Positions 1 through 32,574 of a DNA stretch of 64,000 nt are shown piece after piece; position 1 is the first letter of the stretch; each line of letters begins with the position of its first letter. This stretch comes from Verrucomicrobiia bacterium. Lineage in GTDB: Bacteria > Verrucomicrobiota > Verrucomicrobiia > Limisphaerales > Pedosphaeraceae. The stretch is from assembly GCA_036268055.1 (NCBI GenBank), contig DATAUW010000002.1, positions 28,124-92,123 of the forward strand. The letters run 5' to 3'. The notes under the pieces are model-generated. The model was not told the origin of the DNA. It ran no database searches and saw nothing but the letters and a program-made list of their open reading frames with translations. Position numbers and translations under genes: made by a program.

Positions 1-1000
1 TCGGCTCGCCGCCCATCGTCAAGCGCACATCATTCTTTTTCAGGTCGGCGTCAATCTTGTGCCCAAGCGATTCGATCTCAATCCATTGTTCCTCGGTATA
101 AGGCTTCGTGACGCGCGGCGATTCGTAGATGCGCCGCACGGACATCTCGTGGGAAAATTTGGTTTTGCATTTGTCTATCGCGCCGCTCACGGGCGCCGCG
201 CCAGTGGGCTTGGGCGAACAGGCGAGGGGAATGTGCCCTTCCCCGGCGAAGAGTCCCGACGTGGGATCAAGACCGATCCAGCCGGCGCCAGGAAGATAAA
301 CTTCCGTCCACGCGTGCAGGTCAGTGAAATCAATTTCCGAACCGGATGGGCCGTCGAGCGATTTGACGTCGGGCTTGAGTTGAATCAGGTAGCCGGAAAC
401 GAAACGCGCAGCGAGGCCGAGTTGGCGAAGGATGTGGACGAATAGCCACGCGGAATCGCGGCAGGAACCCGAGCGGAGTTGCAAAGTCGTCTCGGGCTTT
501 TGCACGCCCGATTCCATGCGGATGAGATACTTGATGTCGCGCCAGAGCTTTTGGTTGATCTTGACCAGGAAATCAATCGTGCGCGCTTCCGACACATCCA
601 CGGTCTGAAGATATTCCGCGAGAAAGGGCCCGGGCGTCCGCTTTTTGATGAACGGGCCGAGTTCCTTTTTTAGGGCGGGCTCATATTGAAACGGATATTT
701 TTCAGCAGACGGTTCGAGGAAAAAATCGAACGGATTGTAAACCGCCATCTCGGCGATGAGATCAATTTCAACGAGGAATTCCGTGGCTTTATCAGGAATG
801 GTGAGGCGCGCGAGGTAATTGCTGAAGGGGTCCTGCTGCCAGTTGAGAAAATGTTTCTCGGGAAGAATTTTTTGCGAGTAACTGAGAATGGGCGTGCGGC
901 AATGCGGCGCGGGTCGTAGGCGGATGACGTGCGGCGAATGCGCGACCGGGCGGTCGTACAAATAATGGGTGCGATGATTAAGCGCGACGTGTATGGGCAT
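1..1000 (-). CDS. Transglutaminase-like family protein. Partial: the C-terminus runs off the left window edge. Third gene of the CP-ATP-grasp/alpha-E/transglutaminase module.
   Basis: Manual translation of the minus strand from the ATG at 1000 gives MPIHVALNHRTHYLYDRPVAHSPHVIRLRPAPHCRTP..., which is a Bact_transglu_N-type N-terminus. This is followed by ...LQLRSGSCRDSAWLFVHILRQLGLAARFVSGYL..., which contains the transglutaminase-core catalytic Cys. The frame is open to position 1. It is absent from the ORF track because it is edge-truncated. Confidence 0.85.
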   Translation of the reverse strand, partial: MPIHVALNHRTHYLYDRPVAHSPHVIRLRPAPHCRTPILSYSQKILPEKHFLNWQQDPFSNYLARLTIPDKATEFLVEIDLIAEMAVYNPFDFFLEPSAEKYPFQYEPALKKELGPFIKKRTPGPFLAEYLQTVDVSEARTIDFLVKINQKLWRDIKYLIRMESGVQKPETTLQLRSGSCRDSAWLFVHILRQLGLAARFVSGYLIQLKPDVKSLDGPSGSEIDFTDLHAWTEVYLPGAGWIGLDPTSGLFAGEGHIPLACSPKPTGAAPVSGAIDKCKTKFSHEMSVRRIYESPRVTKPYTEEQWIEIESLGHKIDADLKKNDVRLTMGGEP

Positions 1001-1044
1001 GAGTCGGTGGCGAGATGGTTTTTGTGCGCCGTGGTATGGGACGT

Positions 1045-1290
1045 TGATTTTGACGCAGAGGCGCAGAGGCGCAGAGGCGCAGAGGAGGAAAGAATGGCGA
1101 GATAATGAAAGAAATGAGTTTTTCTTCATCCCATTTCTGTCCTCGCTTAATTACGAAATGAGATTTCACGAGCGCCAACAGCTTGTGATTTATACGTCTA
1201 AGCCACCTGCTGGAGTCTTCTCCCTCTCCGCCGCTTGCGGGGGAGAGGGTTGGGGAGAGGTGGTCCCGTTCACCCCATTTATGGATAAGG
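1045..1290. repeat. Composite repeat region, a degenerate MITE-like relative of the element at 53091-53204. It includes a tandem octamer (gcagaggc) of about 4.5 copies at 1054-1090 and an inverted repeat ccctctccgcc..ggggagaggg at 1215-1250.
   Basis: ttttgacgcagaggcgcagagg... matches the left TIR of the element at 53091. The internal ggaaagaa..atgag string is shared with it. It occupies the unusually long spacer between the alpha-E and transglutaminase genes. Confidence 0.45.
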
Positions 1291-1387
1291 AGAAGATTGA
1301 GGGTTCGATTGTTTTGGGAGATTCGTGTGCATTGAGAGTTAGCAAGGTCTTCGCGCTCGGGGGCAGGGATGCTCGCGCGATTTGAGT

Positions 1388-2371
1388 TCATTGCACACGC
1401 TCTTTGACGGGAGTTTTGGCTTCGGGCATGCGCTTGGCGAGGAAGCGCTCGTAGATGCCGGTACTCGCGAGGTTCATGTTGGTTTGCAGCGCGTCGAGAT
1501 ATTCGTGGAGACCGCTGTTCATGATTTCGTCCATGTTCGCGTAGGCAAGGTCGGAGCAAATCTGGCCAAGCAATTTTTCAGCAGGCTTGCGGTACGTGCC
1601 GATGGGTGTGCCGGAAATGGCGTGGAGCGAATCGCGGGCGGTGCTGAGGCAAAAGCGAATCGCGCGCGGGAACTCGGGGTTGAGCAAAAGAAATTCGGCA
1701 ATCGCCTGCGGCGAGATGCGACCGTGGCATTTGCGATACATCTCAAACGCGCTGGCCGAACGCAACACGGCGATCCATTGCACCTCGTCCAGCGGCGTGC
1801 CGACGTCCTGCACGGAGCGAAGCAGAATAAAATATTTTACGTCGAGAATGCGGGAAGTTTTATCGGCGCGCTCAAGCAGTCGCCCAAGCCGGCCAAAGTG
1901 CCAGCCTTCGCCGTGAGTCATGGTGGCATCGGTGATGCCGCTGAAAAGATGGCTCGCGAGTTTGACCTCGGAAAAAAATTCGTTGGGCGAATAAAACCCC
2001 TTGCCGCTGGTGGCGGCGGAATTAACCATCAAAAAAAATGTGTTCAGTTGCAGCCACATTTCCGACGAGATGATTTCTCGGACGGAATGCGCATTTTCCC
2101 GCGCAGCGCGAAGGCAGGAAATGATCGAATTGGGATTATCACGATCGAAAGTCAAAAACTGGATGACGTTTTCCTGCGTGGCCGCGCCTTTGTAACGCTC
2201 ACCGAAAGATTCATGATCGCCGGTGATATTGACGAGCGGTTCCCATTGCTGATCCGCATTGCCGGAGTCCAGCATGAGATTCAAATTGACGTCCACAAAG
2301 CGCGCGACATTTTCCGCGCGCTCGACATAGCGGCTCATCCAGTAAATTGAATCGGCGACGCGGCTGAGCAT
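1388..2371 (-). CDS. Alpha-E domain protein (DUF403), the middle gene of the CP-ATP-grasp module
   Basis: 327 aa, MLSRVADSIYWMSRYVERAENVARFVDVNL... is a typical alpha-E N-terminus. Its start codon overlaps the upstream gene stop at 2371. Confidence 0.85.
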   Translation of the reverse strand: MLSRVADSIYWMSRYVERAENVARFVDVNLNLMLDSGNADQQWEPLVNITGDHESFGERYKGAATQENVIQFLTFDRDNPNSIISCLRAARENAHSVREIISSEMWLQLNTFFLMVNSAATSGKGFYSPNEFFSEVKLASHLFSGITDATMTHGEGWHFGRLGRLLERADKTSRILDVKYFILLRSVQDVGTPLDEVQWIAVLRSASAFEMYRKCHGRISPQAIAEFLLLNPEFPRAIRFCLSTARDSLHAISGTPIGTYRKPAEKLLGQICSDLAYANMDEIMNSGLHEYLDALQTNMNLASTGIYERFLAKRMPEAKTPVKERVQ

Positions 2372-3897
2372 CAGGCATTCGCTCCTGCCACCTGGGATTG
2401 GCTTTGGGTTTGAGGCTGGGGCTGAGTGTCTTTATGAGTATCGGTCTCGTGGGATATGGGACTGTCGGCCAGCACCCAGGTATCTTTGCTGCCGCCGCCC
2501 TGGGAGGAATTCACAACCAGCGAACCTTTCTTGAGCGCGACGCGAGTAAGGCCGCCCGGCAGTACGAAAATATCTTTGCCATATAATATATATGGCCGGA
2601 GATCCACATGACGGCCAGCGAGGCTGCCGTCCACCAGCGTGGGGACGCGCGAAAGCGCCAGCGTCGGCTGGGCGATGTAGTTGCGCGGATTGGCCACAAT
2701 TCGCTTGGCGAATTCCGCGTGATCTTCCTTCGTTGCGTGCGGACCGATGAGCATGCCGTAACCGCCGGATTCGTTGGCGGCTTTAACGACCAGTTCGGGC
2801 AGATGTTCGAGCACGTATTTCAAATCTTTTTCCTCGGCGCAAATATAGGTGGGCACATTGGGAAGAATAATATCTTCGCCCAGATAATATTTGATGATGC
2901 GCGGGACGTAAGCGTAAACGACTTTGTCATCGGCGACGCCGGTGCCGGGGGCATTGGCGAGAGCGACGTTGCCGGATTTGTAAACACTCATCAGGCCCGG
3001 CACGCCAAGCATGGAATCCGCGCGGAACGCCTCAGGGTCAAGAAAGTCATCATCCACTCGGCGGTAGATGACATCCACGCGCTCGAAGCCGTTCGTCGTG
3101 CGCATCCAGACGTAACCTTCCGACACGACGAGGTCGCTGCCTTCGACGAGTTCCACGCCCATTTGTTGCGCGAGAAACGAATGCTCAAAGTAAGCGGAAT
3201 TGAAAACGCCCGGCGTCAGCACAACCACGCGCGGAGAACTCGAGGCGTCAGGCGCGAGATATTCGAGCATGTCCCGCAGTCGAATGGGATAATTCGAGAC
3301 GGGCCGAATGTGCGACGCGGCGAAGACTTGCGGAAAAAGACTTTTCATCAACCGCCGATTTTCCAATACGTAGGAAACGCCGGATGGACAGCGAAGATTG
3401 TCTTCGAGAACGTAAATATTGCCGTCGCTGTGACGAACAAGGTCCGTGCCGGTGATGTGACACCAGATGTCGCGCGGCGGATTAATGCCGACGCATTGTT
3501 CGCGAAAACCTTTGGACGACGAGATGATGTCCATGGGAACCGCGCCGTCCTTGATGATCTTGCGGTCGTGATAAAGATCGTCAATGAACAGGTTCAGCGC
3601 GCGGATGCGCTGGGTGAGGCCGCGTTCAATACGCTGCCATTCGGTGGCATCCACGATTCGCGGGACCAGGTCGAAGGGCAAAGTCTTTTCCACGCCGGCG
3701 CTTTCGCCGTAAACATTAAAAGTGATGCCGGCCTGAATCAACGCACGGTCGGCGGCAAGCTGGCGGTTGAGCAATTCGCCGGGAGGAAGTGATTCGATGT
3801 TGCGAGCAAGAGGCTTTGCGGCGGCGCGTGGTTGGCCATTCTTGCAGAACATTTCATCAAAAAAACCGCCGCAATCGTATTCGTGAAAATAATTCAT
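2371..3897 (-). CDS. Circularly permuted ATP-grasp type 2 protein (DUF404/DUF407 amidoligase-like)
   Basis: 508 aa with conserved family-level similarity across its length. The gene order CP-ATP-grasp > alpha-E > transglutaminase is the canonical conserved operon. The C-terminal ~25 aa form a Thr/Gln/Pro-rich tail (DTHKDTQPQPQTQSQSQ). Confidence 0.85.
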   Translation of the reverse strand: MNYFHEYDCGGFFDEMFCKNGQPRAAAKPLARNIESLPPGELLNRQLAADRALIQAGITFNVYGESAGVEKTLPFDLVPRIVDATEWQRIERGLTQRIRALNLFIDDLYHDRKIIKDGAVPMDIISSSKGFREQCVGINPPRDIWCHITGTDLVRHSDGNIYVLEDNLRCPSGVSYVLENRRLMKSLFPQVFAASHIRPVSNYPIRLRDMLEYLAPDASSSPRVVVLTPGVFNSAYFEHSFLAQQMGVELVEGSDLVVSEGYVWMRTTNGFERVDVIYRRVDDDFLDPEAFRADSMLGVPGLMSVYKSGNVALANAPGTGVADDKVVYAYVPRIIKYYLGEDIILPNVPTYICAEEKDLKYVLEHLPELVVKAANESGGYGMLIGPHATKEDHAEFAKRIVANPRNYIAQPTLALSRVPTLVDGSLAGRHVDLRPYILYGKDIFVLPGGLTRVALKKGSLVVNSSQGGGSKDTWVLADSPISHETDTHKDTQPQPQTQSQSQVAGANA

Positions 3898-4526
3898 CGG
3901 TGGAGGCGGGTCGCCAGAGTTTGGACACGACTCGCCCGCATCGAAGGAGAAGCGGCAAGGCGCTCAAAAAAACGCCGACACGATGTGGATTCAGCCAGGT
4001 TTAACGCTTCCGTCATAAGAGTTTCGCGAGCCAGGAACTCAAGGCCATTGAGCATTTCAAGTGCCACGGCCCGACTGACGCGATGAACATTGCCGCAAAC
4101 CATCCCAGGCATGCAGTGGCGGGCATTTTCCATACCCGGGAGCATAGTCATTTCTGAAAGCGACAGCAAATAAATTGCCGGAAAGATGGTCATAAATTTG
4201 CGCCATGTTCAAAAGAAAACAGGGACAGTGCGGAATGCGGAGTGTGGAGTGCGGAATTGTCGCACTAAAATCCAGTTTGATCGTTTGGGTGCACGAAGGA
4301 GGACAGAAAATCGCGATTTTGTGCGCGATTTGCGAACCGAAAGGCAAATTGCTTTATGGAATTTTGCGAGCCGTTTTGTTTAAGCAGAGGCGTAATGGTT
4401 TAAAGATTTTGGAAATGAGGGGGTTAAAATTTTGAGTCCGCGCGACAATCTGTCGCCATCAAAATGTTTTTTGCGGGCATGGGCGTTGCTAAATAAAGCT
4501 GGCCCATTAACAAAAACCAAAAAAAT

Positions 4527-5888
4527 ATGACGACCCCAAATCAAACCGATACATCCACGGATACGGCGTCGCGTTTTCAAAACGCAACGGCGTCCACCAA
4601 CAATAAAAGCAAAATCACCAGCGCGAAGTCTGCGACCGGGTCGAAAGCGGCGTCCAGCAAAGCGAAAAATTCTTCGAGCCAAACGAAGCACACGGGTTCC
4701 AAGGCAAGTGCGAAAGGTTCGAGCGCAAAATTTTCCAAAGGAGCATCCCGTTCGGGCGCTTCCAGGGGAAAGAAAAACCAGAAAGCACAAACAGAAAGAT
4801 CAAATATGTCGAATCAACAGCAGCGAGGCCGAAATGGAAATCGCGGAAGCGATTACAATGACCGCTTTGAAAATCAAGACAACCGCCGGCGCGAAAGCCA
4901 ATCCTCGAACTGGGGACAAAGTTCGGATGATTGGTCTGAACGCTACGGCAACGGCGGGCGTCTCTCGAATCAGGAGCGTGATGAACGCAGCCGTTATGAA
5001 GAGACGGGCAGTCGGCAGGGCAACAACCGCCGGCAAGGGCGCGCGGGCAACGGGGGTTCGCAATCCTCTTCGCAATATCGCGGACAGGATTATTATGACC
5101 GGCAGGATCGCGAGAACTCCGGCACTTCTTCCTATGGATCGCAAAATGAAAATTGGGATGACCAGCGCAATTACGGCCAGAGCAGCCAGCGCGGAGGAAG
5201 TTACGGACGCGGAAGTAATTTCAATCGTGAAGGCCGCGGACATTCGCAGAATTCCCAGGGCTCGCAGAATTGGCGGAACACCGGTCAAAACGACGAGTAT
5301 GATTCGGGAAATTCGCGTTCACAAAACCGTGAGCGCAATCAGGGCTCACAGAGTCGCGGATATAACGAGGAATCGGATTGGGGCCCAGGCTTCAACCAGG
5401 GTTCTCAAAGTTCCAACCGGAATCAACAATCTGGTCAAAATTCGCAACCGCGCAATCGTCGCTCGGAATCGCAGAACCGCGATTGGGATGACGCCGCCGG
5501 ACGCTACGATCAACCAAACGATTATCAATCCTCATCGCGTTCGGGCAGCGGGCGCGATTGGAATGAAACTCATGCAGATCAGCAAGGCAGTCGCCGTCGC
5601 TCGCGCAATCAGACTCAGGAACAATACGACCAGGATCGCTTCCAGAATTCCGATTACGCGCGCGCTTACTCCGGTTCGAGCGACTGGGATGATTCCCAGG
5701 AATATGACCGTCCCGGCAACGTGAGTTCTTCCGGACGACCCGACCGCGAACGCGAAGAGTGGGATCGTTTTGAAAACGAAAGCACCGAGCAGCCCGGCCG
5801 TGAATATCAAAGCTACGATCAGCGTCAACGCGGATCGTCGCGCGGAAATTCGCGTCGGCAATCACGCGATTATTCTCGCTCGAATTAA
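4527..5888 (+). CDS. Hypothetical intrinsically disordered hydrophilic protein. N-terminal Lys/Ser/Ala-rich basic segment. C-terminal Q/N/S/R/G/D/E-rich domain with repeated DW/Y motifs.
   Basis: 453-aa ORF almost devoid of aliphatic residues. There are about 9 Trp residues, each in a xDW[DN][DE]...Y[GD] context. It contains [GS]Y[GS] and RG-rich motifs. A strong intrinsic terminator lies immediately downstream (5917-5952). It sits in a divergent arrangement with the amidoligase operon. The alternative frames are also open because of low complexity, so the coding frame is inferred from the start context and the terminator. Confidence 0.6.
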   Translation: MTTPNQTDTSTDTASRFQNATASTNNKSKITSAKSATGSKAASSKAKNSSSQTKHTGSKASAKGSSAKFSKGASRSGASRGKKNQKAQTERSNMSNQQQRGRNGNRGSDYNDRFENQDNRRRESQSSNWGQSSDDWSERYGNGGRLSNQERDERSRYEETGSRQGNNRRQGRAGNGGSQSSSQYRGQDYYDRQDRENSGTSSYGSQNENWDDQRNYGQSSQRGGSYGRGSNFNREGRGHSQNSQGSQNWRNTGQNDEYDSGNSRSQNRERNQGSQSRGYNEESDWGPGFNQGSQSSNRNQQSGQNSQPRNRRSESQNRDWDDAAGRYDQPNDYQSSSRSGSGRDWNETHADQQGSRRRSRNQTQEQYDQDRFQNSDYARAYSGSSDWDDSQEYDRPGNVSSSGRPDREREEWDRFENESTEQPGREYQSYDQRQRGSSRGNSRRQSRDYSRSN

Positions 5889-5916
5889 TCGGCTAATTCA
5901 GTCCGTAGTGTGAACA

Positions 5917-5952
5917 CGCGGGCAGGACGTTCGTTCTGCCCGCGATTTTTTT
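5917..5952 (+). terminator. Rho-independent terminator of the 4527-5888 gene
   Basis: cgcgggcag / gacgttcgtt / ctgcccgcg stem-loop followed by tttttt. Confidence 0.55.
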
Positions 5953-5990
5953 GACCACAGATTGAACACGAATAAACCCGAAATCGAACG
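5951..5990 (+). repeat. Small dispersed intergenic repeat, family A (ccacagattgaacacgaataaacccgaaatcgaac). It is a divergent member.
   Basis: Shares the ccacgga/ccacaga-t-gaacacg-a core with the copies at 12235, 12945 and 33699 (reverse orientation). Confidence 0.4.
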
Positions 5991-6087
5991 TAAAACAGAC
6001 TTTGACGCGTATTGCTAAAAGCTAATGCAAAGTTTTCGAGCCAATCGTTTCAAGCATTCGATTCAGCCTAACGCCTTTTTCCTTTTG

Positions 6088-6120
6088 AACTGAAAACTGA
6101 AAACTTGAAACTGAAAACTC
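6088..6120. repeat. Tandem heptamer array (tgaaaac)(tgaaaac)(ttgaaac)(tgaaaac), upstream of gltX
   Basis: Direct reading of ctgaaaactgaaaacttgaaactgaaaactc. Similar arrays occur at 58087-58122, 37318-37345, 12193-12215 and 13505-13530. Confidence 0.5.
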
Positions 6121-6231
6121 TCTGCCGCGTTTACTCTGTGGCTGAAAAAAGAGCATTGAGTAACACTTGCCAGTCTGGGCGGAGACGCATTAGGGTGGGG
6201 AGAATTTGATTTTGGAAATTTTATATTCAAT

Positions 6232-7845: not shown

Positions 7846-10299
7846 ATGGCCAAGCGCTCCCACTCGAAGCCGCAAAAAGAGCCCAAGGCTGTCCCGTCTC
7901 AAAAGCGCGAACCGGCCCAAACGGATCCCGCAAATAACTTGGGACCGCTCGTCGCGGCTTTTCTGCTGACGTTCCTGATCACCAGAATCCCCCGCGAAGT
8001 GGTAAATGCCGGCCTGGATGCCGCCTGGGGTTACGTGCTGAATTTTGCGCATCAAAAGAACCTGCAGTTCGGAACGGACATCGTCTATACCTACGGTCCG
8101 CTGGGTTTTCTCGAGCAGGAATGGTTCGCGGGACCGGGTGAGGGACTGCGAATATTTTTCGCCTTCCTGCGCGGTTTCGGAATCGCCTACGGCGTTTGTC
8201 TCGTTGCCTGGCGAATGAGACTTGCGTGGAGATGTATTTTCCTCGGAGTCTTCATTCTGCTGCCCGCAACCGTTCACGCCAACCGAATCGAGCCTTTATT
8301 GGAAGTGGGCTTATTTTGCTGGGCCATGCTGAACCTGGTTGAACCAGACCAAAACAAAGGCGTATTTGCCATCGGTCTCATCGCCATCGCAACCATTGGC
8401 TCGCTGGGAAAGTTCACGTTCTTCTTGCTCGCGACTATGACCGTCGCGGTCGTCGCTTGGCATCTTGCGTTGCGCGGACGGCGAAAGTGGGGAATTGGCA
8501 TCGTGGTTGGTTACGTTTTGTCCTCGTTCCTTGGATGGATTTTGTTGCGTCAAAGCCCGCTGATATTGGGCGCTTATTTCAAAAACTCGCTGGCACTCTC
8601 GTTTGGTTATGAGGAAACCATGGGATGGAAAACGCCTTCCGAAATCTGGACCCCCGGCATTATCATGATGACGCTCGCGCTGGCGACTGCGCTCATCTAT
8701 TCCATCGCCGCTTATGACAAAACCGTTCGCCGGCCCGGATTACGCCCGACGCTGCTTTTCGGCTGGGTGGCTTGTTTCACGTTTCTGTTTTGGAAACACG
8801 GTTTCATCCGTCACAAAATGGATCTGTTCGCAACGTCCGTGCCAGTGACCGTGCTCGCATTGGACATCCTCCCAAGCCCATTCAAGGCAGCCCGGCTTTG
8901 GGCACGCGGTTGCGCCCTGGTTTGTTGCCTCGCCGCCGGTATTTTAATGACCACGCTGACGCCAGGATATTTTGGAGATTTCGTTTCCACCGATTTTCAT
9001 CTTCTCTCCGACAACATCAAGACACTGTTGAATCCCTCCGCCTACCTCGCCCGCATGAACCAGTCGCTCGACGCAGAACGCAATGGCGCGCAGTTGCCGC
9101 GCATCCGCCAAATCGTCGGTCAGGCTACGGTGGATGTGTTCGGCGAATATCAATCCTACGCGCTCTTCAATGGCCTAAATTACCGCCCGCGCCCCGATTT
9201 CCAAAGCTACTCGACTTATAATTCATCCCTGATGAAGGTGAACGAAAATCTATACAATTCCCCGGCGGCGCCGGAATTTGTATTATTTAATCTTGAAGCG
9301 ATTGATGCCCGTTTTCCTCCGTTGGAAGACGCGTATGTCCTGCGCGATTTGCTCATCAACTACGCGCCGATCGAATGCGAAGGCCGCTTCCTGCTGCTCA
9401 AGCGCAGCCAATCCAACACTCCTGAAATGTCGTTGCTCAAGGAAGGCACCGGCCACATCGGCGAAGCCATTAGTCTGAGCGAGTACAGCAACACCGATCT
9501 CTGGATGGAGATCTCGATGCAGCCAACCTTGCGCGGCCGTCTGCGGAAACTCTTCTTTAAACCGTCGGAAATTTATTTGAGCGTCTGGGGAAGTCAGCCC
9601 GCGTCGCAACCAGCCACATTTCGCGCGCCCGCGCCCATGCTTGCCGCCGGCTTCCTCGCAAGTCCATTTTTGCTCCGCGATTCCGACGTGGTGGATTTAT
9701 ACACGGGTGAAAACATTCACCGTCCCGGAGCCTTCGCGATCGAGGTGGAAAGGCGCGCCGAAAATTTCTGGCGCGAAGATTTCGATTATAAAATTTATCA
9801 AATCAAATCCAAACTCGGGCGCAGCGTTCCGGCAGAAATGGCCCGGTTGAAATTGCCGGGCTTTCAAATGATGCCGCAAATTGTATCTCCCGCCGGTCCG
9901 CCTGGCATCGCCGCCGTCGGCGGCAGCCCTGCGCTTTTGCTGCGCCCCGGTGGCTACATGGTTTTTAAGGTTCCCCAGGACGCACGAACTATTACGGGAA
10001 ATTTCGGATTTGCCGAGCCTGCCTACGTGCAAGGCTCGACCGAGGGTGCCGAGTTTCGGGTTGAAGAAGTTACTAGGGATGGCGCCTCCCATCTACTCTA
10101 TAGTCAATTCCTTTCACCACGAATCCGCGCGGAAGACCGCGGCCTGAAACATTTCTCTGTTCCTCTCCCGGCTCAGAACGATGAAACAATTGTGTTCCGT
10201 TCCATTTCTGCTACCAATTCCAATCCCCAATGGGACCTGACCTGCTGGTCAGAAATCAGATTCGAAACGAACCAGCCTCCGACCGGAACCCAACCATGA
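7846..10299 (+). CDS. Large polytopic membrane protein of unknown function. About 10 TM helices in the N-terminal half and a large C-terminal extracytoplasmic domain. Possibly a GT-C-like glycosyltransferase.
   Basis: 817 aa. Multiple hydrophobic segments at residues ~35-380. No confidently recognised catalytic motif. Confidence 0.55.
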   Translation: MAKRSHSKPQKEPKAVPSQKREPAQTDPANNLGPLVAAFLLTFLITRIPREVVNAGLDAAWGYVLNFAHQKNLQFGTDIVYTYGPLGFLEQEWFAGPGEGLRIFFAFLRGFGIAYGVCLVAWRMRLAWRCIFLGVFILLPATVHANRIEPLLEVGLFCWAMLNLVEPDQNKGVFAIGLIAIATIGSLGKFTFFLLATMTVAVVAWHLALRGRRKWGIGIVVGYVLSSFLGWILLRQSPLILGAYFKNSLALSFGYEETMGWKTPSEIWTPGIIMMTLALATALIYSIAAYDKTVRRPGLRPTLLFGWVACFTFLFWKHGFIRHKMDLFATSVPVTVLALDILPSPFKAARLWARGCALVCCLAAGILMTTLTPGYFGDFVSTDFHLLSDNIKTLLNPSAYLARMNQSLDAERNGAQLPRIRQIVGQATVDVFGEYQSYALFNGLNYRPRPDFQSYSTYNSSLMKVNENLYNSPAAPEFVLFNLEAIDARFPPLEDAYVLRDLLINYAPIECEGRFLLLKRSQSNTPEMSLLKEGTGHIGEAISLSEYSNTDLWMEISMQPTLRGRLRKLFFKPSEIYLSVWGSQPASQPATFRAPAPMLAAGFLASPFLLRDSDVVDLYTGENIHRPGAFAIEVERRAENFWREDFDYKIYQIKSKLGRSVPAEMARLKLPGFQMMPQIVSPAGPPGIAAVGGSPALLLRPGGYMVFKVPQDARTITGNFGFAEPAYVQGSTEGAEFRVEEVTRDGASHLLYSQFLSPRIRAEDRGLKHFSVPLPAQNDETIVFRSISATNSNPQWDLTCWSEIRFETNQPPTGTQP

Positions 10300-28426: not shown

Positions 28427-30934
28427 TTAGCTCGAGAGCGCGCCGTGCGCGGACGTGTTCTGGATGAACACAAGTTTGTCGTTTTCCAAGGTGACCTGGA
28501 TGGGATCGTTTTCGTGGAGATTGCCCTTGAGCAATTCCTCCGCCAGCGGATCTTCGAGGAAACGCTCGACCGCGCGGCGCATCGGACGCGCGCCATAATT
28601 CGGGTCGTAGCCCTTCTGCACGAGGAAGTCCATCGCCTTTTCATCCAGCGTGAGATGAATATTCTTGTGCTTCAGGCGCGTCGTGACCTTGCTGATCTCG
28701 AGGTCGAGAATCTGGATCAAGTCCGGTTTCGTAAGCGAGCGGAAGACAATAACATCATCCAAACGATTCAGGAATTCCGGCTTAAACGTGCGCTTGGCTT
28801 CATCCATGATTTTCTCGCGCATGCCTTCGTAGGTATGCTGATCGGAGATCGGCGAAAAGCCCATCGTGGATTGTTTCTTGATGGTTTCTGAACCGACGTT
28901 CGAAGTCATCAATATGATCGTGTTGCGGAAATTCACCACGCGGCCCACGCTGTCGGTCAACTTGCCTTCCTCCAAAATTTGGAGAAGCATGTTCCAGACG
29001 TCCGGATGCGCTTTTTCAATTTCGTCGAATAGCACAACCGAATAAGGCTTGCGGCGCACTTGTTCCGTCAACTGGCCGCCTTCTTCATAACCCACATATC
29101 CGGGCGGCGAACCGACGAGGCGCGACACATTGAATTTTTCCATGTATTCGCTCATGTCGAGTTGAATGAGCGATTTGGTATCGCCGAACATCTGTTCCGC
29201 GAGAGTTTTCGCGAGCAAGGTTTTGCCAACGCCGGTCGGCCCAAGCAACGCGAACGTGCCGATCGGGCGCTTCGGATCTTTCAAGTCCGCGCGAGCGCGG
29301 CGCAAGGCCTTGCACATCGCCACCACGGCTTCGTGCTGGCCGACGACGACCTTGGACATTTCCTGCTCGACCGCGAGCAACCGCTGGGCTTCGCCTTGTT
29401 CCATGCGCTTGAGCGGAATGCCGGTCCACTTGGCGACCACATGCAGAATATCTTCCTCGTCCACGCGAACACGTTTTTCTTCGCGGTTCGTGCGCCATGC
29501 GGTGAGGATGGCGTCGAGTTTTTCCTTCGCCTGCTTTTCTTTATCGCGCATGGACGCCGCGCCTTCAAAATCCTGTTCCTTGATGGCGCGTTCCTTCTTG
29601 ACCTTGATGTCTTCGATCTCGACTTCCACGTCCTTCACTTCGGGCGGGCGAGTCATCGTGCCGATGCGTGCGCGCGAACCGGCTTCGTCCATCAAATCAA
29701 TCGCCTTGTCCGGCAGGAAACGATCGGGGATATAACGGTCGGAAAGCTTGACCGCCGCCTCAATGGCTTTATCAGTGAATTCTGCCTTATGATGCTCTTC
29801 GTATTTGCCGCGAAGGCCCTTGAGAATAAGCACGGCTTCCTCGATGGAAGGCGCTTCGACTTTCACACTCTGGAAACGACGTTCGAGCGCGGCGTCTTTC
29901 TCGATATATTTGCGATATTCATTGAGCGTGGTCGCGCCGATGCATTGCATCTCGCCGCGGCTGAGCGCGGGCTTGATGATGTTCGAGGCGTCCATCGTGC
30001 CTTCGGCGGAACCCGCGCCGACGATGGTGTGCAACTCGTCAATGAACAAAATAATATTCTTCGCGCGGCGGATTTCGTCCATGACCGCTTTGATGCGCTC
30101 TTCGAACTGGCCGCGATATTTAGTGCCCGCCACCATCAACGCGAGGTCGAGAGTGATGACGCGTTTTTCGCGCAGCAATTCCGGCACGTTGCCTTGGGCG
30201 ATTTCCTGCGCGAGACCTTCGACGATGGCGGTCTTGCCGACACCCGCTTCACCGAGCAGCACGGGATTATTTTTCGTGCGGCGGCAAAGGATTTGAATGA
30301 CGCGCTCGATCTCGTTCTTGCGGCCGATGACCGGGTCCATTTCATTTTTGCGCGCAATCTCCGTGAGGTCGCGCCCAAAGGCTTTCAACGCCGGGGTTTT
30401 GACATCGCCTTTTTTCTCCGGCGGGGCAGGGCGTTCCGCGCCTTCGCCACCTTGCGGCGGAGTTTGTTCTTCTGAGGCGGAAAAATTCGGATCAAGTTCC
30501 TTGAGGATTTCCTGGCGCGTCTGTTCGATGTCAATGTCCAGATTCTTCAACACGCGTGCGGCCACGCCGTCGCCTTCACGCAGCAGGCCCAATAATATAT
30601 GCTCCGTGCCGACGTAGGTGTGATTGAGCGCCTTGGCTTCCTTGGCGGCGAGTTGCAAAACCTTCTTCACGCGCGGCGTATAAGGAATATTGCCGATCAT
30701 TTTTTGATCGGGACCGGTGCCGACTTGCTTCTCGACTTCCATGCGGACGGTTTCGAGATCGAGCCCGAGTTTTTGCAAGACGTTGACCGCGACGCCCTGT
30801 CCCAATTTGATCAGGCCGAGCAAAAGATGTTCGGTGCCAACGAAGTTATGGTTAAAGCGATCGGCCTCTTTGCGCGCCAGCGCGAGCACTTGTTGTGCGC
30901 GTGGCGTAAAATTATTCATTGATTCATCACTCAT
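28427..30934 (-). CDS. clpC: ATP-dependent Clp protease ATP-binding subunit ClpC
   Basis: 835 aa. Two Clp_N repeats, two AAA+ modules ([16 protein letters not shown]), a UVR motif. Confidence 0.95.
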
Positions 30935-30945
30935 AATTCAAAATG

Positions 30946-32064
30946 CTACGGTTTTTCAGGTTTGTCCACTTTACCGCCTTCCATGCCCGCGCCGCGAGCG
31001 ACTGGCCGGCTCACGCCGCGCAAATGTTCCCGCACCATATCCGCACGCAGCAAATCCCGTTCCTCAGCCGAAAGTTTCTCCGAATGCTGCTTCTGCAAAT
31101 GCGCCGGCTGCGTCAATATAAATAACTCATCGGTCAAGGACCGGTCGCCGCCGGGGAACAAATCCAAGTCTATTCCCAGGCGCATGAATGACAACAGGTT
31201 CATCGTTTCTTTGGACGTAATCGTATGGGCGTTCGCGAGAATGCCGTAGGCGCGACCTATATGGTTGAAAAGCATTTTGGGCTTCTTTTCCAGGAGCATC
31301 GCACGCGAATTTTCTTCGTGCTCGATGATCTGGGAAAGCACTTTGTCGAGGCGTTCGACTATGGCAGTTTCGGTTTCGCCCAAGGTCATTTGGTTGGAAA
31401 CCTGGAAAACATTGCCCAGTGCTTCAGTACCTTCGCCATACAAACCGCGCACGGCCAGGCCAAGTTTGTTCACGGATTGGATGATCGGGTTGATCTGTTC
31501 GTGGAGGACGAGTCCGGGCAGGTGCAACATCGCGCTTACGCGGATGCCGGTGCCGAGATTCGTCGGGCAAGCGGTGAGATACCCGATGTCCGAGCTATAG
31601 GCGTAATTCAATTTGCGCTCAAGCGCGGTATCCGCCTGATCAATCGCCAGCCACGCCTGCTTAAGTTGCAAACCGGGGCGAAGCGCTTGCATGCGCAAAT
31701 GATCTTCCTCGTTGATCATCACGCAAAGGGATTCTTCGCGATTGAGAACAAGTCCGCTGCCGGCGCTTTTCGCGGCGTGCTCGCGGCTGATGAGATGGCG
31801 TTCGATGAGAATCTGTTTATCGAGCGCGGAAAGATTATCCATGGACTCCGAGAACGCGCCTTTCATTTCCGAAAGGCTTTCGACGGCGGGCCGGATGATG
31901 TCCATGAGGCGGACCTTCTCCGATTTTTTCGCCCAACCCGGAAACGCCCCGTCCCGGACATTGCGCGCGAGCCGCACCCGGCTCGACATCACGATCCGGT
32001 CGTGCGGGCCTTTGCGGCGCACGCTGTCAGCCGGCGGGATGAGGAAGTCATGAATGTTCATCAA
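30946..32064 (-). CDS. mcsB: Protein arginine kinase (ATP:guanido phosphotransferase)
   Basis: 372 aa. Phosphagen-kinase signature CPTNLGTGIR. Confidence 0.9.
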   Translation of the reverse strand: MMNIHDFLIPPADSVRRKGPHDRIVMSSRVRLARNVRDGAFPGWAKKSEKVRLMDIIRPAVESLSEMKGAFSESMDNLSALDKQILIERHLISREHAAKSAGSGLVLNREESLCVMINEEDHLRMQALRPGLQLKQAWLAIDQADTALERKLNYAYSSDIGYLTACPTNLGTGIRVSAMLHLPGLVLHEQINPIIQSVNKLGLAVRGLYGEGTEALGNVFQVSNQMTLGETETAIVERLDKVLSQIIEHEENSRAMLLEKKPKMLFNHIGRAYGILANAHTITSKETMNLLSFMRLGIDLDLFPGGDRSLTDELFILTQPAHLQKQHSEKLSAEERDLLRADMVREHLRGVSRPVARGAGMEGGKVDKPEKP

Positions 32065-32574
32065 TCAAGTCGTCGCTAAATTGCCCAGCTTATTGGACAT
32101 CTGTTTGATCTCGTCGCGCAACAAGGCGGCCTGCTCAAAATTTTCGTCGTCCACGGCCTTGGAAAGTTTTTTCTGCAACGTCTTCAAACGCTCGGTCAAC
32201 TCGCGGCTCTGTTGAAGCGATTGCGGCACCTTGCCGACGTGGTGCGTGCCCTTGTGCATGGTCTTGAGCAACCCTTCGAGGCCCTCCGCGAAGGTCGCAT
32301 AACATTCCGCGCAACCGAGGCGTCCGGCTTTTTTGAAATCCGCTTGCGTGAAACCGCACTTGGGACATTTCAAATCCGCGCCGCCGGAGGCCGCTTCCAA
32401 TTCCTGCGAAGCGCCGAGGCCGAGCAAAAGATCGGCAAGCGAAAAGCCGGTGGGATCGTTGACGCCTTTTTGCTTGGCGCATTCTTCGCACAAATCTACC
32501 TTCTGCATCTTGTCGCCCTGAATCTGGGTCAGATGCACGGTGGCTTCTTTTTCTTTGCAAACACAACACAACAT
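32065..32574 (-). CDS. mcsA: Protein arginine kinase activator McsA (two CxxC zinc ribbons plus a UVR domain)
   Basis: 169 aa. CCVC..CEEC and CPKC..CAEC pairs. A C-terminal UVR-like helix (AALLRDEIKQM). Confidence 0.8.
   Translation of the reverse strand: MLCCVCKEKEATVHLTQIQGDKMQKVDLCEECAKQKGVNDPTGFSLADLLLGLGASQELEAASGGADLKCPKCGFTQADFKKAGRLGCAECYATFAEGLEGLLKTMHKGTHHVGKVPQSLQQSRELTERLKTLQKKLSKAVDDENFEQAALLRDEIKQMSNKLGNLATT

What the first reader, a model, noticed from the sequence alone, without database searches (positions are those of the whole stretch)
4527..5888. 453-aa ultra-hydrophilic low-complexity protein with regularly spaced Trp/Tyr stickers and a basic histone-H1-like N-terminus
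The ORF encodes a protein with essentially no aliphatic core. Residues 1-90 are Lys/Ser/Ala-rich (KSATGSKAASSKAKNSSSQTKHTGSKASAKGSSAK), like histone H1 / AlgP-type basic tails. The remaining ~360 aa are Q/N/S/R/G/D/E-rich with about 9 copies of a motif built around a single Trp (SDDWSERYGNGG, NENWDDQRNYGQSS, NRDWDDAAGRYDQ, GRDWNETHADQ, SSDWDDSQEYDRPG, EEWDRFENES, ESDWGPGFNQGS...). It also carries [GS]Y[GS] and RG/RGG-like motifs reminiscent of eukaryotic FUS-type prion-like domains and of bacterial or plant hydrophilins (KGG/LEA-like). An aromatic sticker/polar spacer architecture like this is the grammar of phase-separating or desiccation-protective proteins. It has a dedicated strong terminator (5917-5952). 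It sits divergently from the amidoligase operon across a 630-bp regulatory region.
Basis: partly seen in the sequence, partly recalled or inferred. Interest (0 to 1): 0.8.

Follow-up and report, generated by a model that had tools for sequence, protein, structure and literature searches.

The report
Orphan fully disordered hydrophilic bacterial protein
A soil-type Verrucomicrobium carries a real-looking gene for a 453-residue protein with almost no hydrophobic residues, no predicted fold and no detectable relative in billions of sequences; it may be a stress-protective or condensate-forming protein, but nothing beyond its composition supports a function yet.

Summary
The ORF at 4527-5888 (+) exists as described. 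It encodes 453 aa with one Ile, one Leu, one Val and no Cys, GRAVY -2.12, and no AlphaFold structure (pLDDT 42).

It looks like a real gene in this frame. T at codon position 2 occurs 12 times in 453 codons, against 96 and 114 at positions 1 and 3 (p 9e-27). This holds in all four segments tested, and the flanks are flat. Synonymous codon use is best in this frame. A -24 kcal/mol hairpin with a U7 run follows the stop by 29 nt.

It has two modules. Residues 1-95 are Lys/Ser/Ala/Thr-rich with net charge +15. Residues 96-453 contain no Lys and are Arg/Asp/Glu-balanced, with 34 aromatic residues. All nine Trp follow D, E or N (p<5e-5).

"Regular spacing" is only marginal (p 0.05-0.07). FUS-type, RGG and KGG motifs are nearly absent, and nothing supports histone H1 or AlgP membership.

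No homologue was found in any protein, family, structure or contig search. Relatives with 85-86% identical neighbouring genes lack the whole 2.3-kb segment.

The best reading is a lineage-restricted intrinsically disordered protein that meets the compositional definition of a hydrophilin. Its function is inferred, not shown.

The parts
4527..5888 (+). Coding sequence of the 453-aa disordered protein (stop codon 5886-5888)
   Evidence: ORF listing. It was called as a gene on JGI contig Ga0376694_0000005. T at codon position 2 is 12/453 against 96 and 114 at positions 1 and 3, chi-square p 9e-27, significant in each of the four segments tested. Synonymous codon score is highest in this frame, 0.098, against a native-gene mean of 0.153.
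4527..4811 (+). Module 1: residues 1-95, a Ser/Ala/Lys/Thr-rich polycationic tail (14 K, 4 R, 3 acidic; pI 11.3). It contains all the Lys of the protein.
   Evidence: K/R segregation between the two modules has Fisher p 7e-12. Base periodicity within this segment has p 2.6e-7.
4812..5885 (+). Module 2: residues 96-453, a Lys-free polar polyampholyte. It has R 16%, D+E 16%, Q+N 24%, S 17% and G 12%. Fraction of charged residues is 0.32, net charge per residue about 0, pI 6.35. It has 34 aromatic residues (9 W, 20 Y, 5 F).
4908..5768 (+). Array of nine [D/E/N]-W motifs. The Trp codons start at 4911, 4932, 5154, 5271, 5379, 5484, 5559, 5685 and 5760. The commonest form is D-W-D-D-x(2-5)-Y/F.
   Evidence: At the DNA level only three 14-nt copies are recognisable (5478, 5553, 5679) and there is no tandem repeat.
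5917..5952 (+). Intrinsic terminator: 12-bp stem with 9 GC pairs, 4-nt loop, then a T7 run, 29 nt after the stop codon. On the minus strand the stem is not followed by a T run.
   Evidence: -24.4 kcal/mol, z -4.5, 0 of 200 shuffles fold as well. The minus-strand point is read directly from the sequence.
3898..4526 (.). Upstream gap shared with the divergent ATP-grasp operon. GC is about 0.47. No convincing sigma-70 promoter and no Shine-Dalgarno sequence; the leader before the ATG is A-rich.
   Evidence: Shine-Dalgarno sequences are absent from most genes in this window, so their absence here says nothing. No Rfam family matches.
3898..6231 (.). Lineage-specific 2.3-kb segment between two conserved gene blocks (the ATP-grasp operon and gltX).
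   Evidence: No blastn similarity to any of 160 related loci. The closest relatives have an MFS transporter (L002) or a 618-aa ORF (GMC-oxidoreductase-like by eye, not family-searched; L082) at the corresponding junctions.

Best explanation
**Shown**
- This is a monocistronic, chromosomal, protein-coding gene of an uncultured Pedosphaera-like Verrucomicrobium.
- Its product is predicted to be disordered from end to end.
- It has no detectable homologue.

**Inferred**
- It acts as a stand-alone intrinsically disordered protein of the hydrophilin, sticker-spacer kind.
- The Lys/Ser/Ala-rich N-terminal tail (net +15) would bind polyanions such as DNA, RNA or polyphosphate by charge.
- The 358-residue Lys-free tract would supply many weak contacts: 56 Arg, 57 Asp+Glu and 34 aromatic residues, including nine acidic-Trp motifs, set in Ser/Gln/Asn/Gly spacers. 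These would be Arg-aromatic and charge-charge contacts.
- At high concentration or low water activity the protein would then self-associate, or coacervate with nucleic acid. It would act as a water-retaining or shielding matrix, or as a condensate scaffold.
- The strict use of Lys in one module and Arg in the other fits different roles. Lys gives plain electrostatic binding. Arg acts as a sticker towards aromatic residues.
For: **Coding in this frame**
- Frame-specific base periodicity along the whole ORF, absent in the flanks.
- The open frame is longer than in all 1000 shuffles.
- Best synonymous codon score of the six frames, and within the range of native genes.
- Strong terminator 29 nt after the stop.
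- No Pfam family for any alternative-frame ORF.

**Disorder**
- pLDDT 42 and no secondary structure.
- The most hydrophobic 19-residue window has a Kyte-Doolittle average of -0.46.
- The charge-hydropathy position is far inside the disordered field.

**Hydrophilin criteria**
- Both are met (definition in PMC7448490).

**Non-random grammar**
- [DEN]W in 9 of 9 cases, p<5e-5.
- Trp followed by another aromatic residue, p 0.017.
- K/R segregation, p 7e-12.
- The protein has 36 aromatic residues and 60 Arg. From my own knowledge this is comparable to FUS-family proteins, where Tyr x Arg valence sets the saturation concentration (Wang et al. 2018, Cell). This was not tested here.

**Ecology**
- The nearest relatives' contig names resemble those I recall from soil and peat metagenomes, but the tools gave no habitat information. 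A soil setting would make a water-deficit role more plausible.
Against: - There is no evidence of expression.
- There is no homologue, so there is no evidence of purifying selection or of a conserved frame.
- The gene is absent from the corresponding positions in relatives whose flanking genes are 85-86% identical.
- No recognisable promoter was found.
- Aromatic spacing is not clearly more even than chance (p 0.07).
- Charge patterning is that of a random mix.
- Known bacterial hydrophilins are, as far as I recall, small proteins of under about 150 aa. This one has 453.
- The high charge fraction (0.32) could keep the chain soluble rather than condensing.
Confidence: 0.4

Rival explanations
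1. It is a multivalent linker. The nine acidic-Trp motifs are short linear motifs that each dock onto a folded, probably oligomeric, partner protein. The disordered chain would then cross-link or recruit many copies of that partner. This is how EPYC1 and CsoS2 bind Rubisco and how GW182 binds Argonaute. The basic N-tail would anchor the assembly to nucleic acid.
For: The Trp context is highly non-random (9 of 9 preceded by D, E or N). The motifs share flanks (p 0.02) and a downstream Tyr or Phe (p 0.017). Gaps of 25-74 residues resemble linker-motif architectures. The DNA copies have diverged while the motif is kept, which suggests selection on the peptide motif.
Against: No candidate partner lies nearby. 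The 64-kb window encodes ordinary housekeeping genes. The motif is short and degenerate, and a profile built from it does not even detect the protein itself at database scale. Only 2 of the 9 Trp are in GW or WG context.
Confidence: 0.2
2. It is a young, lineage-specific proto-gene, or a mis-called ORF, with little or no function. It would be an open frame that persists because the DNA is T-poor, translated weakly if at all.
For: No homologue in 1.84 billion representative proteins, among the 6,684 word-sharing candidates drawn from 5.8 billion clusters, or in the metagenome pattern scan. It is absent from syntenic positions and the whole 2.3-kb segment is unique. GC3 is 0.54, between the intergenic value of 0.46-0.47 and the 0.63-0.68 of neighbouring genes. 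Shuffles of this T-poor DNA reach open frames of up to 454 codons. No promoter was recognised.
Against: The eight-fold depletion of T at codon position 2, uniform over 1.36 kb and absent in the flanks, is hard to obtain without selection on the encoded residues. The non-random Trp context and the K/R segregation point the same way. So do the genome-like codon choice for Arg, Ser, Gln, Asn and Tyr and the dedicated terminator.
Confidence: 0.2
3. It is a substrate or partner of the divergently transcribed ATP-grasp / Alpha-E / transglutaminase gene cluster. For example, Lys of the N-tail and Gln of the C-tract could be cross-linked, or peptide tags could be ligated onto the protein.
For: The arrangement is divergent across a shared 629-bp gap. 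The cluster encodes transglutaminase-core proteins. The protein has 14 Lys confined to one end and 46 Gln in the other module.
Against: The ATP-grasp cluster is widespread, and none of the 80 related loci, including six Verrucomicrobiota loci at 75-86% identity, has a comparable hydrophilic ORF nearby. In the closest relative the neighbour is an MFS transporter. Adjacency here looks like the result of a rearrangement.
Confidence: 0.05

Closest known systems
Hydrophilins (the compositional class that includes LEA proteins, yeast Hsp12, and E. coli RMF and YciG)
   Same: It meets both defining numbers: Gly 10.6% (threshold above 6%) and mean hydrophilicity 2.1 (threshold above 1.0). It is predicted fully disordered and comes from an organism whose relatives appear to be soil or peat bacteria (my inference, not a tool result).
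   Different: It has no sequence or profile similarity to any LEA, dehydrin, KGG or CsbD family. It has no K-segments and no KGG motif. At 453 aa it is, as far as I recall, several times longer than known bacterial hydrophilins. It is rich in Arg, Trp and Tyr, which classic hydrophilins are not. Induction by water deficit is unknown.
Eukaryotic sticker-spacer disordered regions (FUS/hnRNPA1 prion-like domains with RGG domains; Ddx4 and LAF-1 N-terminal regions)
   Same: Polar Ser/Gln/Asn/Gly spacers carry about 9.5% aromatic residues and many Arg. Aromatic and Arg counts (36 and 60) are of the order seen in FUS-family proteins (from my own knowledge). The near-neutral polyampholyte character resembles Ddx4 and LAF-1.
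   Different: There are only 2 [GS]Y[GS] and 1 RGG. A charged fraction of 0.32 is far above that of prion-like domains. Trp rather than Tyr or Phe carries the conserved context. Even aromatic spacing is not demonstrated (p 0.07). There is no folded RNA-binding domain. There is no homology.
Multivalent Trp-motif linkers (GW182/TNRC6 Ago-hook repeats; Chlamydomonas EPYC1)
   Same: A long disordered chain has single Trp residues in a recurring local context, tens of residues apart.
   Different: The context here is acidic ([DEN]-W-[DE]) rather than Gly-Trp. There is no helical W-containing repeat as in EPYC1, and no Argonaute or Rubisco gene in the window. This comparison comes from my own knowledge and is a lead only.
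Lys-rich nucleoid tails (histone H1 C-terminal domain, chlamydial Hc1/Hc2, Pseudomonas AlgP)
   Same: It has a basic, low-complexity, Ala/Ser/Lys-containing segment with net charge +15 over 95 residues, in a member of the PVC superphylum.
   Different: Lys is only 15%, against roughly 30-40% in those tails (from my own knowledge). Pro is 1%. There are no KPAA or AKKA-type repeats and no Pfam match. It is only one fifth of the protein.
Bacterial condensate or positioning disordered proteins (McdB, PopZ, RNase E C-terminal domain)
   Same: It is a bacterial, largely disordered, charged protein. McdB proteins have functionally important Trp (PMC8359340, seen; abstract only).
   Different: There is no adjacent ParA/McdA-type ATPase. 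There are no charge blocks; the sequence charge decoration is like that of shuffles. There is no oligomerisation helix and no homology.

Membership tests
Hydrophilins (Garay-Arroyo et al. 2000 criteria, as quoted in PMC7448490) | Glycine content above 6% | tested here: met
   Gly is 10.6%. The definition was read.
Hydrophilins (Garay-Arroyo et al. 2000 criteria, as quoted in PMC7448490) | Average hydrophilicity index above 1.0 | tested here: met
   Kyte-Doolittle GRAVY is -2.12 for the whole protein, -1.26 for the N module and -2.35 for the C module.
Hydrophilins (Garay-Arroyo et al. 2000 criteria, as quoted in PMC7448490) | Accumulation under water deficit or osmotic stress | not testable with these tools
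   No expression data are available for this uncultured organism.
LEA / dehydrin / KGG-repeat / CsbD families | Match to the family profile, or presence of K-segments or KGG motifs | tested here: not met
   Pfam gave 0 families at E<=0.1 for the whole protein and at E<=10 for the C-terminal module; the N-terminal module gave one chance-level match (Epiglycanin_TR, E 3.8, 8 bits against a cut-off of 27). NCBIfam gave 0 families at E<=10. There are no KGG motifs.
FUS-type prion-like low-complexity domain | Dense [G/S]Y[G/S] motifs in an almost uncharged Ser/Tyr/Gly/Gln tract | tested here: not met
   There are 2 [GS]Y[GS] motifs in 453 residues. The fraction of charged residues in the C module is 0.32.
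FUS-type prion-like low-complexity domain | Aromatic residues more evenly spaced than chance | tested here: inconclusive
   The coefficient of variation of the aromatic gaps is 0.72. 7% of shuffles are as even or more so. For Trp alone the figure is 5%.
RGG/RG domain | Clustered RGG or RG repeats | tested here: not met
   There are 1 RGG and 10 RG, scattered.
Histone H1 / Hc1 / AlgP-type basic proteins | Family profile match, or Lys/Ala/Pro repeat tract with very high Lys content | tested here: not met
   There is no Pfam match. The N module has K 15%, P 1% and no short repeat.
GW182-type Ago-hook repeats | Multiple GW or WG dipeptides in a disordered region | tested here: not met
   2 of the 9 Trp are in GW or WG context. 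All 9 are in [DEN]W context.
Intrinsically disordered protein (operational) | No predicted stable structure, and low hydropathy for its net charge | tested here: met
   AlphaFold2 with a single sequence gives mean pLDDT 42, no residue at 70 or above, and no secondary structure. Normalised hydropathy is 0.26 against a boundary of 0.42. Caveat: single-sequence models are often poor.
Orphan (taxonomically restricted) gene | No homologue outside the lineage despite exhaustive search, and absence at syntenic positions in relatives | tested here: met
   Searches found no hit. A self-hit would score 900 bits, so the method is not blind to this sequence. Syntenic positions in relatives are empty.

The most novel reading that the evidence does not exclude
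A Verrucomicrobium has evolved, apparently within its own genus-level lineage, a stand-alone 51-kDa sticker-spacer protein. A Lys-only polyanion-binding tail is fused to a Lys-free Arg/aromatic polyampholyte with nine acidic-Trp stickers. The protein would form nucleic-acid-containing condensates or a protective glass under water stress. That would make it a bacterial, independently invented counterpart of eukaryotic FUS/Ddx4-type scaffolds or tardigrade-type protectants.
Probability: 0.15. Interest if true: 0.65.

Novelty: new variant of a known kind. Interest (0 to 1): 0.4.

Why it matters
Long, entirely disordered, stand-alone proteins are, as far as I know, uncommon in bacteria. Few bacterial condensate scaffolds or protectants are known, and those that are were found by genetics rather than by sequence.

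If this protein is expressed and behaves as its composition suggests, it would be a compact natural test case. It separates Lys and Arg, and Trp and Tyr, into distinct modules, which is useful for studying sticker-spacer rules in a bacterial cytoplasm. It would also be an example of recent birth or very fast divergence of a large disordered protein.

If it is not expressed, it shows how T-poor DNA can mimic a gene.

At present it is a single sequence from one metagenome contig. There is no conservation, expression or genetic evidence, so its value is as a candidate and not as a result.

Tried and rejected
**Homology searches**
- phmmer over the 6,684 word-sharing candidates drawn from 5.8 billion clusters found nothing at E<=1e-3, and nothing again at E<=10.
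- Exhaustive phmmer against 1.84 billion representatives found nothing.
- I checked that this is not blindness. A self-hit scores 900 bits with default filters. The exact sequence is not in that collection. Default tblastn finds the gene in the window.

**Family and structure searches**
- Pfam, NCBIfam, PHROGs and PADLOC gave nothing at E<=0.1. Relaxed to E<=10, the only match was chance-level: Epiglycanin_TR on residues 1-95, E 3.8, 8 bits against a cut-off of 27.
- Sequences of solved PDB structures gave nothing.

**Contig searches**
- Peptide-pattern scans of metagenome and viral contigs gave nothing.
- tblastn against plasmids and phages gave nothing.

**Synteny**
- I fetched 80 ATP-grasp loci from genomes and 80 gltX loci from metagenomes, about 2 Mb in all.
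- No comparable hydrophilic ORF was present; only off-frame junk in high-GC DNA turned up.
- There was no DNA similarity to positions 3898-6231.

**Strain variants for dN/dS**
- Exact look-ups of the ORF, gltX and the ATP-grasp protein return only the one JGI contig, present twice.

**Motif profile**
- A profile of the Trp motif (alignment A2) was meant to find motif arrays in other proteins.
- I rejected it after a local test showed that it does not detect even the parent protein at database scale.
- The third homology search was therefore left unused.

**Other readings**
- Alternative frames give no Pfam family.
- There is no RNA family and no tRNA.
- A sigma-54 promoter reading of 4475-4490 is rejected as evidence. 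The window-wide count of such matches is at chance, 41 against 35±6.
- The inverted repeat bracketing the gene (4446-4465 / 5945-5964, 16 of 20) is about what chance gives for a 1.6-kb region, by my own estimate of roughly 0.5 expected.
- A fold search was not run, because a pLDDT-42 model would give meaningless matches.
- Literature searches for comparable bacterial proteins found nothing specific.
Full report
**1. What is there**

Its product is 18% Ser, 13% Arg, 11% Gln, 11% Gly, 10% Asn, 7.5% Asp and 5.7% Glu. It has one Ile, one Leu, one Val, two Met and no Cys. GRAVY is -2.12, and the most hydrophobic 19-residue window still averages -0.46.

The window is an ordinary chromosomal stretch of an uncultured Pedosphaera-like Verrucomicrobium.
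- The exact protein is called on a 715-kb JGI metagenome contig.
- The neighbouring circularly permuted ATP-grasp protein is 86% identical to that of a Pedosphaera MAG.
- The other genes in the window are housekeeping genes.

**2. Is it a gene, and in this frame?**

- *Open frame.* The 463-codon open frame is longer than in any of 1000 dinucleotide-preserving shuffles. The DNA has only 16% T, so shuffles average 181 codons and reach 454. Length alone is therefore weak evidence.
- *Frame-specific composition.* This is the stronger evidence. T occupies codon position 2 in 12 of 453 codons, against 96 at position 1 and 114 at position 3 (chi-square p 9e-27). The pattern is significant in each of the four segments tested, including the Lys-rich N-terminus. 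The flanking 629 and 343 bp show no periodicity. T at position 2 encodes Ile, Leu, Val, Met and Phe, so the sequence has been shaped against hydrophobic residues in this frame over its whole length.
- *Codon use.* Synonymous codon use fits the genome best in this frame: 0.098 per codon, against -0.14 to 0.058 in the other five frames. Native genes average 0.153 and range from -0.13 to 0.26.
- *Terminator.* A 12-bp, 9-GC hairpin with a U7 run sits 29 nt after the stop (-24.4 kcal/mol, z -4.5). It separates the gene from gltX.
- *Translation and transcription signals.* There is no Shine-Dalgarno sequence, but most genes in the window lack one too. No sigma-70-like promoter was found upstream. 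A sigma-54-like match at 4475-4490 is at chance level.
- *Alternative frames.* ORFs in the other frames hit no Pfam family.
- *RNA genes.* No Rfam family or tRNA is present.

**3. Anatomy**

The protein has two sharply different modules.
- Residues 1-95 are Ser 23%, Ala 15%, Lys 15% and Thr 14%, with net charge +15 and pI 11.3.
- Residues 96-453 have no Lys at all. They have 56 Arg balanced by 57 Asp+Glu (net -1, pI 6.35), 24% Gln+Asn, 17% Ser, 12% Gly and 34 aromatic residues.
- The Lys/Arg segregation has Fisher p 7e-12.

All nine Trp lie in the second module, and each is preceded by Asp, Glu or Asn. None of 20,000 shuffles reached 9 of 9. Eight are followed by another aromatic residue 3-9 positions later (p 0.017), and the flanks resemble each other (p 0.02). 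The commonest form is D-W-D-D-x(2-5)-Y/F.

At the DNA level there is no tandem repeat, and only three 14-nt copies of the motif are recognisable. The motif is therefore kept at the peptide level, or the copies are old.

- The spacing of Trp (p 0.05) and of all aromatics (p 0.07) is only marginally more even than chance.
- Charge patterning is like that of shuffles.
- There are just 2 [GS]Y[GS], 1 RGG and 0 KGG.

AlphaFold2 on the single sequence gives mean pLDDT 42, no residue at 70 or above, and no secondary structure. The charge-hydropathy position is deep in the disordered field.

**4. Relatives**

None was found.
- Word-seeded phmmer over the 6,684 word-sharing candidates drawn from 5.8 billion clusters gave nothing at E<=1e-3, and nothing again at E<=10.
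- Exhaustive phmmer against 1.84 billion representatives gave nothing.
- Pfam, NCBIfam, PHROGs, PADLOC and PDB sequences gave nothing at E<=0.1; relaxed to E<=10, only a chance-level Epiglycanin_TR match on residues 1-95 appeared.
- Pattern scans of metagenome and viral contigs gave nothing.
- tblastn against plasmids and phages gave nothing.

The methods are not blind to this sequence. A self-match scores 900 bits and default tblastn recovers the gene. The exact sequence is simply not in the protein collection.

Synteny gives the same answer.
- In the closest genome (L002; ATP-grasp 86% identical) the divergent neighbour is an MFS transporter.
- In the closest metagenome contig (L082; gltX 85% identical) the gene upstream of gltX is a 618-aa ORF (GMC-oxidoreductase-like by eye; I did not run a family search on it).
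- No comparable hydrophilic ORF occurs in about 2 Mb of 160 related loci.
- Positions 3898-6231 have no DNA similarity to any of those loci.
- Exact look-ups of the flanking proteins return only this contig, so there are no strain variants and dN/dS cannot be computed.

The gene is therefore either restricted to a narrow lineage or acquired from an unsampled source. Its largely genome-like codon choice argues against very recent foreign origin. Its GC3 of 0.54 lies between intergenic DNA (0.46-0.47) and neighbouring genes (0.63-0.68), which is compatible with a young gene.

**5. How it most likely works**

What is shown is a coding frame, a disorder-type composition, a two-module layout and a non-random Trp context. 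The rest is inferred.
- The Lys-rich tail would bind polyanions by charge.
- The Arg/acidic/aromatic tract would provide many weak Arg-aromatic and charge contacts in flexible polar spacers.
- The protein would therefore self-associate or coacervate with nucleic acids when concentrated or dehydrated, and act as a protectant or condensate scaffold.
- It meets the two numerical hydrophilin criteria (definition).

Rivals:
- The Trp motifs are docking sites for a folded partner, making the protein a multivalent linker.
- The ORF is a barely functional proto-gene.
- It is a substrate of the neighbouring ATP-grasp/transglutaminase cluster. This is disfavoured, because none of the 80 related clusters has such a neighbour.

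**6. Comparison with known proteins**

It works like, and numerically qualifies as, a hydrophilin. It is not a member of any LEA, dehydrin, KGG, CsbD, H1, Hc1 or AlgP family, because the profile and motif tests were not met. It shares the sticker-spacer idea with FUS, Ddx4 and LAF-1 but fails the FUS-type and RGG motif tests. Its acidic-Trp context differs from GW182 hooks.

**7. Verdict**

With one sequence and no conservation or expression evidence, this is a moderately interesting candidate (interest 0.4). It is a new variant of a known compositional kind, not a demonstrated new system.

Noticed in passing
window 3894-4193 (-): JGI called a 99-aa ORF whose stop overlaps the ATP-grasp start codon by 4 nt. 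It has no Pfam family, only a chance-level NCBIfam match (NanR, E 0.069), and no tblastn match in 160 related loci. Its codon periodicity is weak (p 0.08). It may be a second orphan or a mis-call. If it is real, the true intergenic gap to the disordered-protein gene is 333 bp rather than 629.
   Followed up: partly
window 4051-4066 (-), 4165-4180 (-), 4475-4490 (+): Three sigma-54-like -24/-12 matches (TGGCAC-N5-TTGCW with 1, 2 and 2 mismatches) fall within the 629-bp divergent gap. The 1-mismatch site faces the ATP-grasp operon. The window-wide count of such matches is at chance (41 against 35±6), so this is only a lead.
   Followed up: partly
window 6088-6119: A 7-nt tandem repeat, AACTGAA x 4.6, lies in the 343-bp gap upstream of gltX. 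Its purpose is unknown.
   Followed up: no
window 4768-4804: A 13-nt imperfect repeat, GAAAGAACAAACA x 2.8, lies just upstream of the junction between the Lys-rich and Arg-rich modules (residue 95/96, nt 4811/4812), a few nt before the internal Met94 codon (ATG at 4806). This could mark a fusion point or an alternative start.
   Followed up: no
window 4446-4465 and 5945-5964: An imperfect inverted repeat (16 of 20 complementary) brackets the ORF plus its terminator. By my rough estimate about 0.5 such pairs are expected by chance in 1.6 kb, so it is probably coincidence. Mobility of the gene cassette was not otherwise tested.
   Followed up: partly
window 28427-32574 (-): A ClpC-type AAA+ chaperone (835 aa) is followed by an ATP:guanido phosphotransferase (372 aa, McsB-like protein arginine kinase by family) and a 169-aa ORF. 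I know this arrangement best from Firmicutes, and here it is in a Verrucomicrobium. An Arg-rich disordered protein would be an obvious potential substrate; that is pure speculation.
   Followed up: no
L001 1-9371 (window about 1-3897 and beyond the window start): Two sets of ATP-grasp / Alpha-E / transglutaminase genes lie side by side. One has a fused 848-aa ATP-grasp+Alpha-E protein, and the other has separate 508-aa and 327-aa proteins. There is also a 1123-aa transglutaminase+DUF2126 protein.
   Followed up: no
window 7846-10299 (+): An 817-aa ORF downstream of gltX, which reads as a multi-pass membrane protein, has no Pfam family above the cut-off. Its only match is a faint DUF7549 hit at E 0.023.
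   Followed up: no
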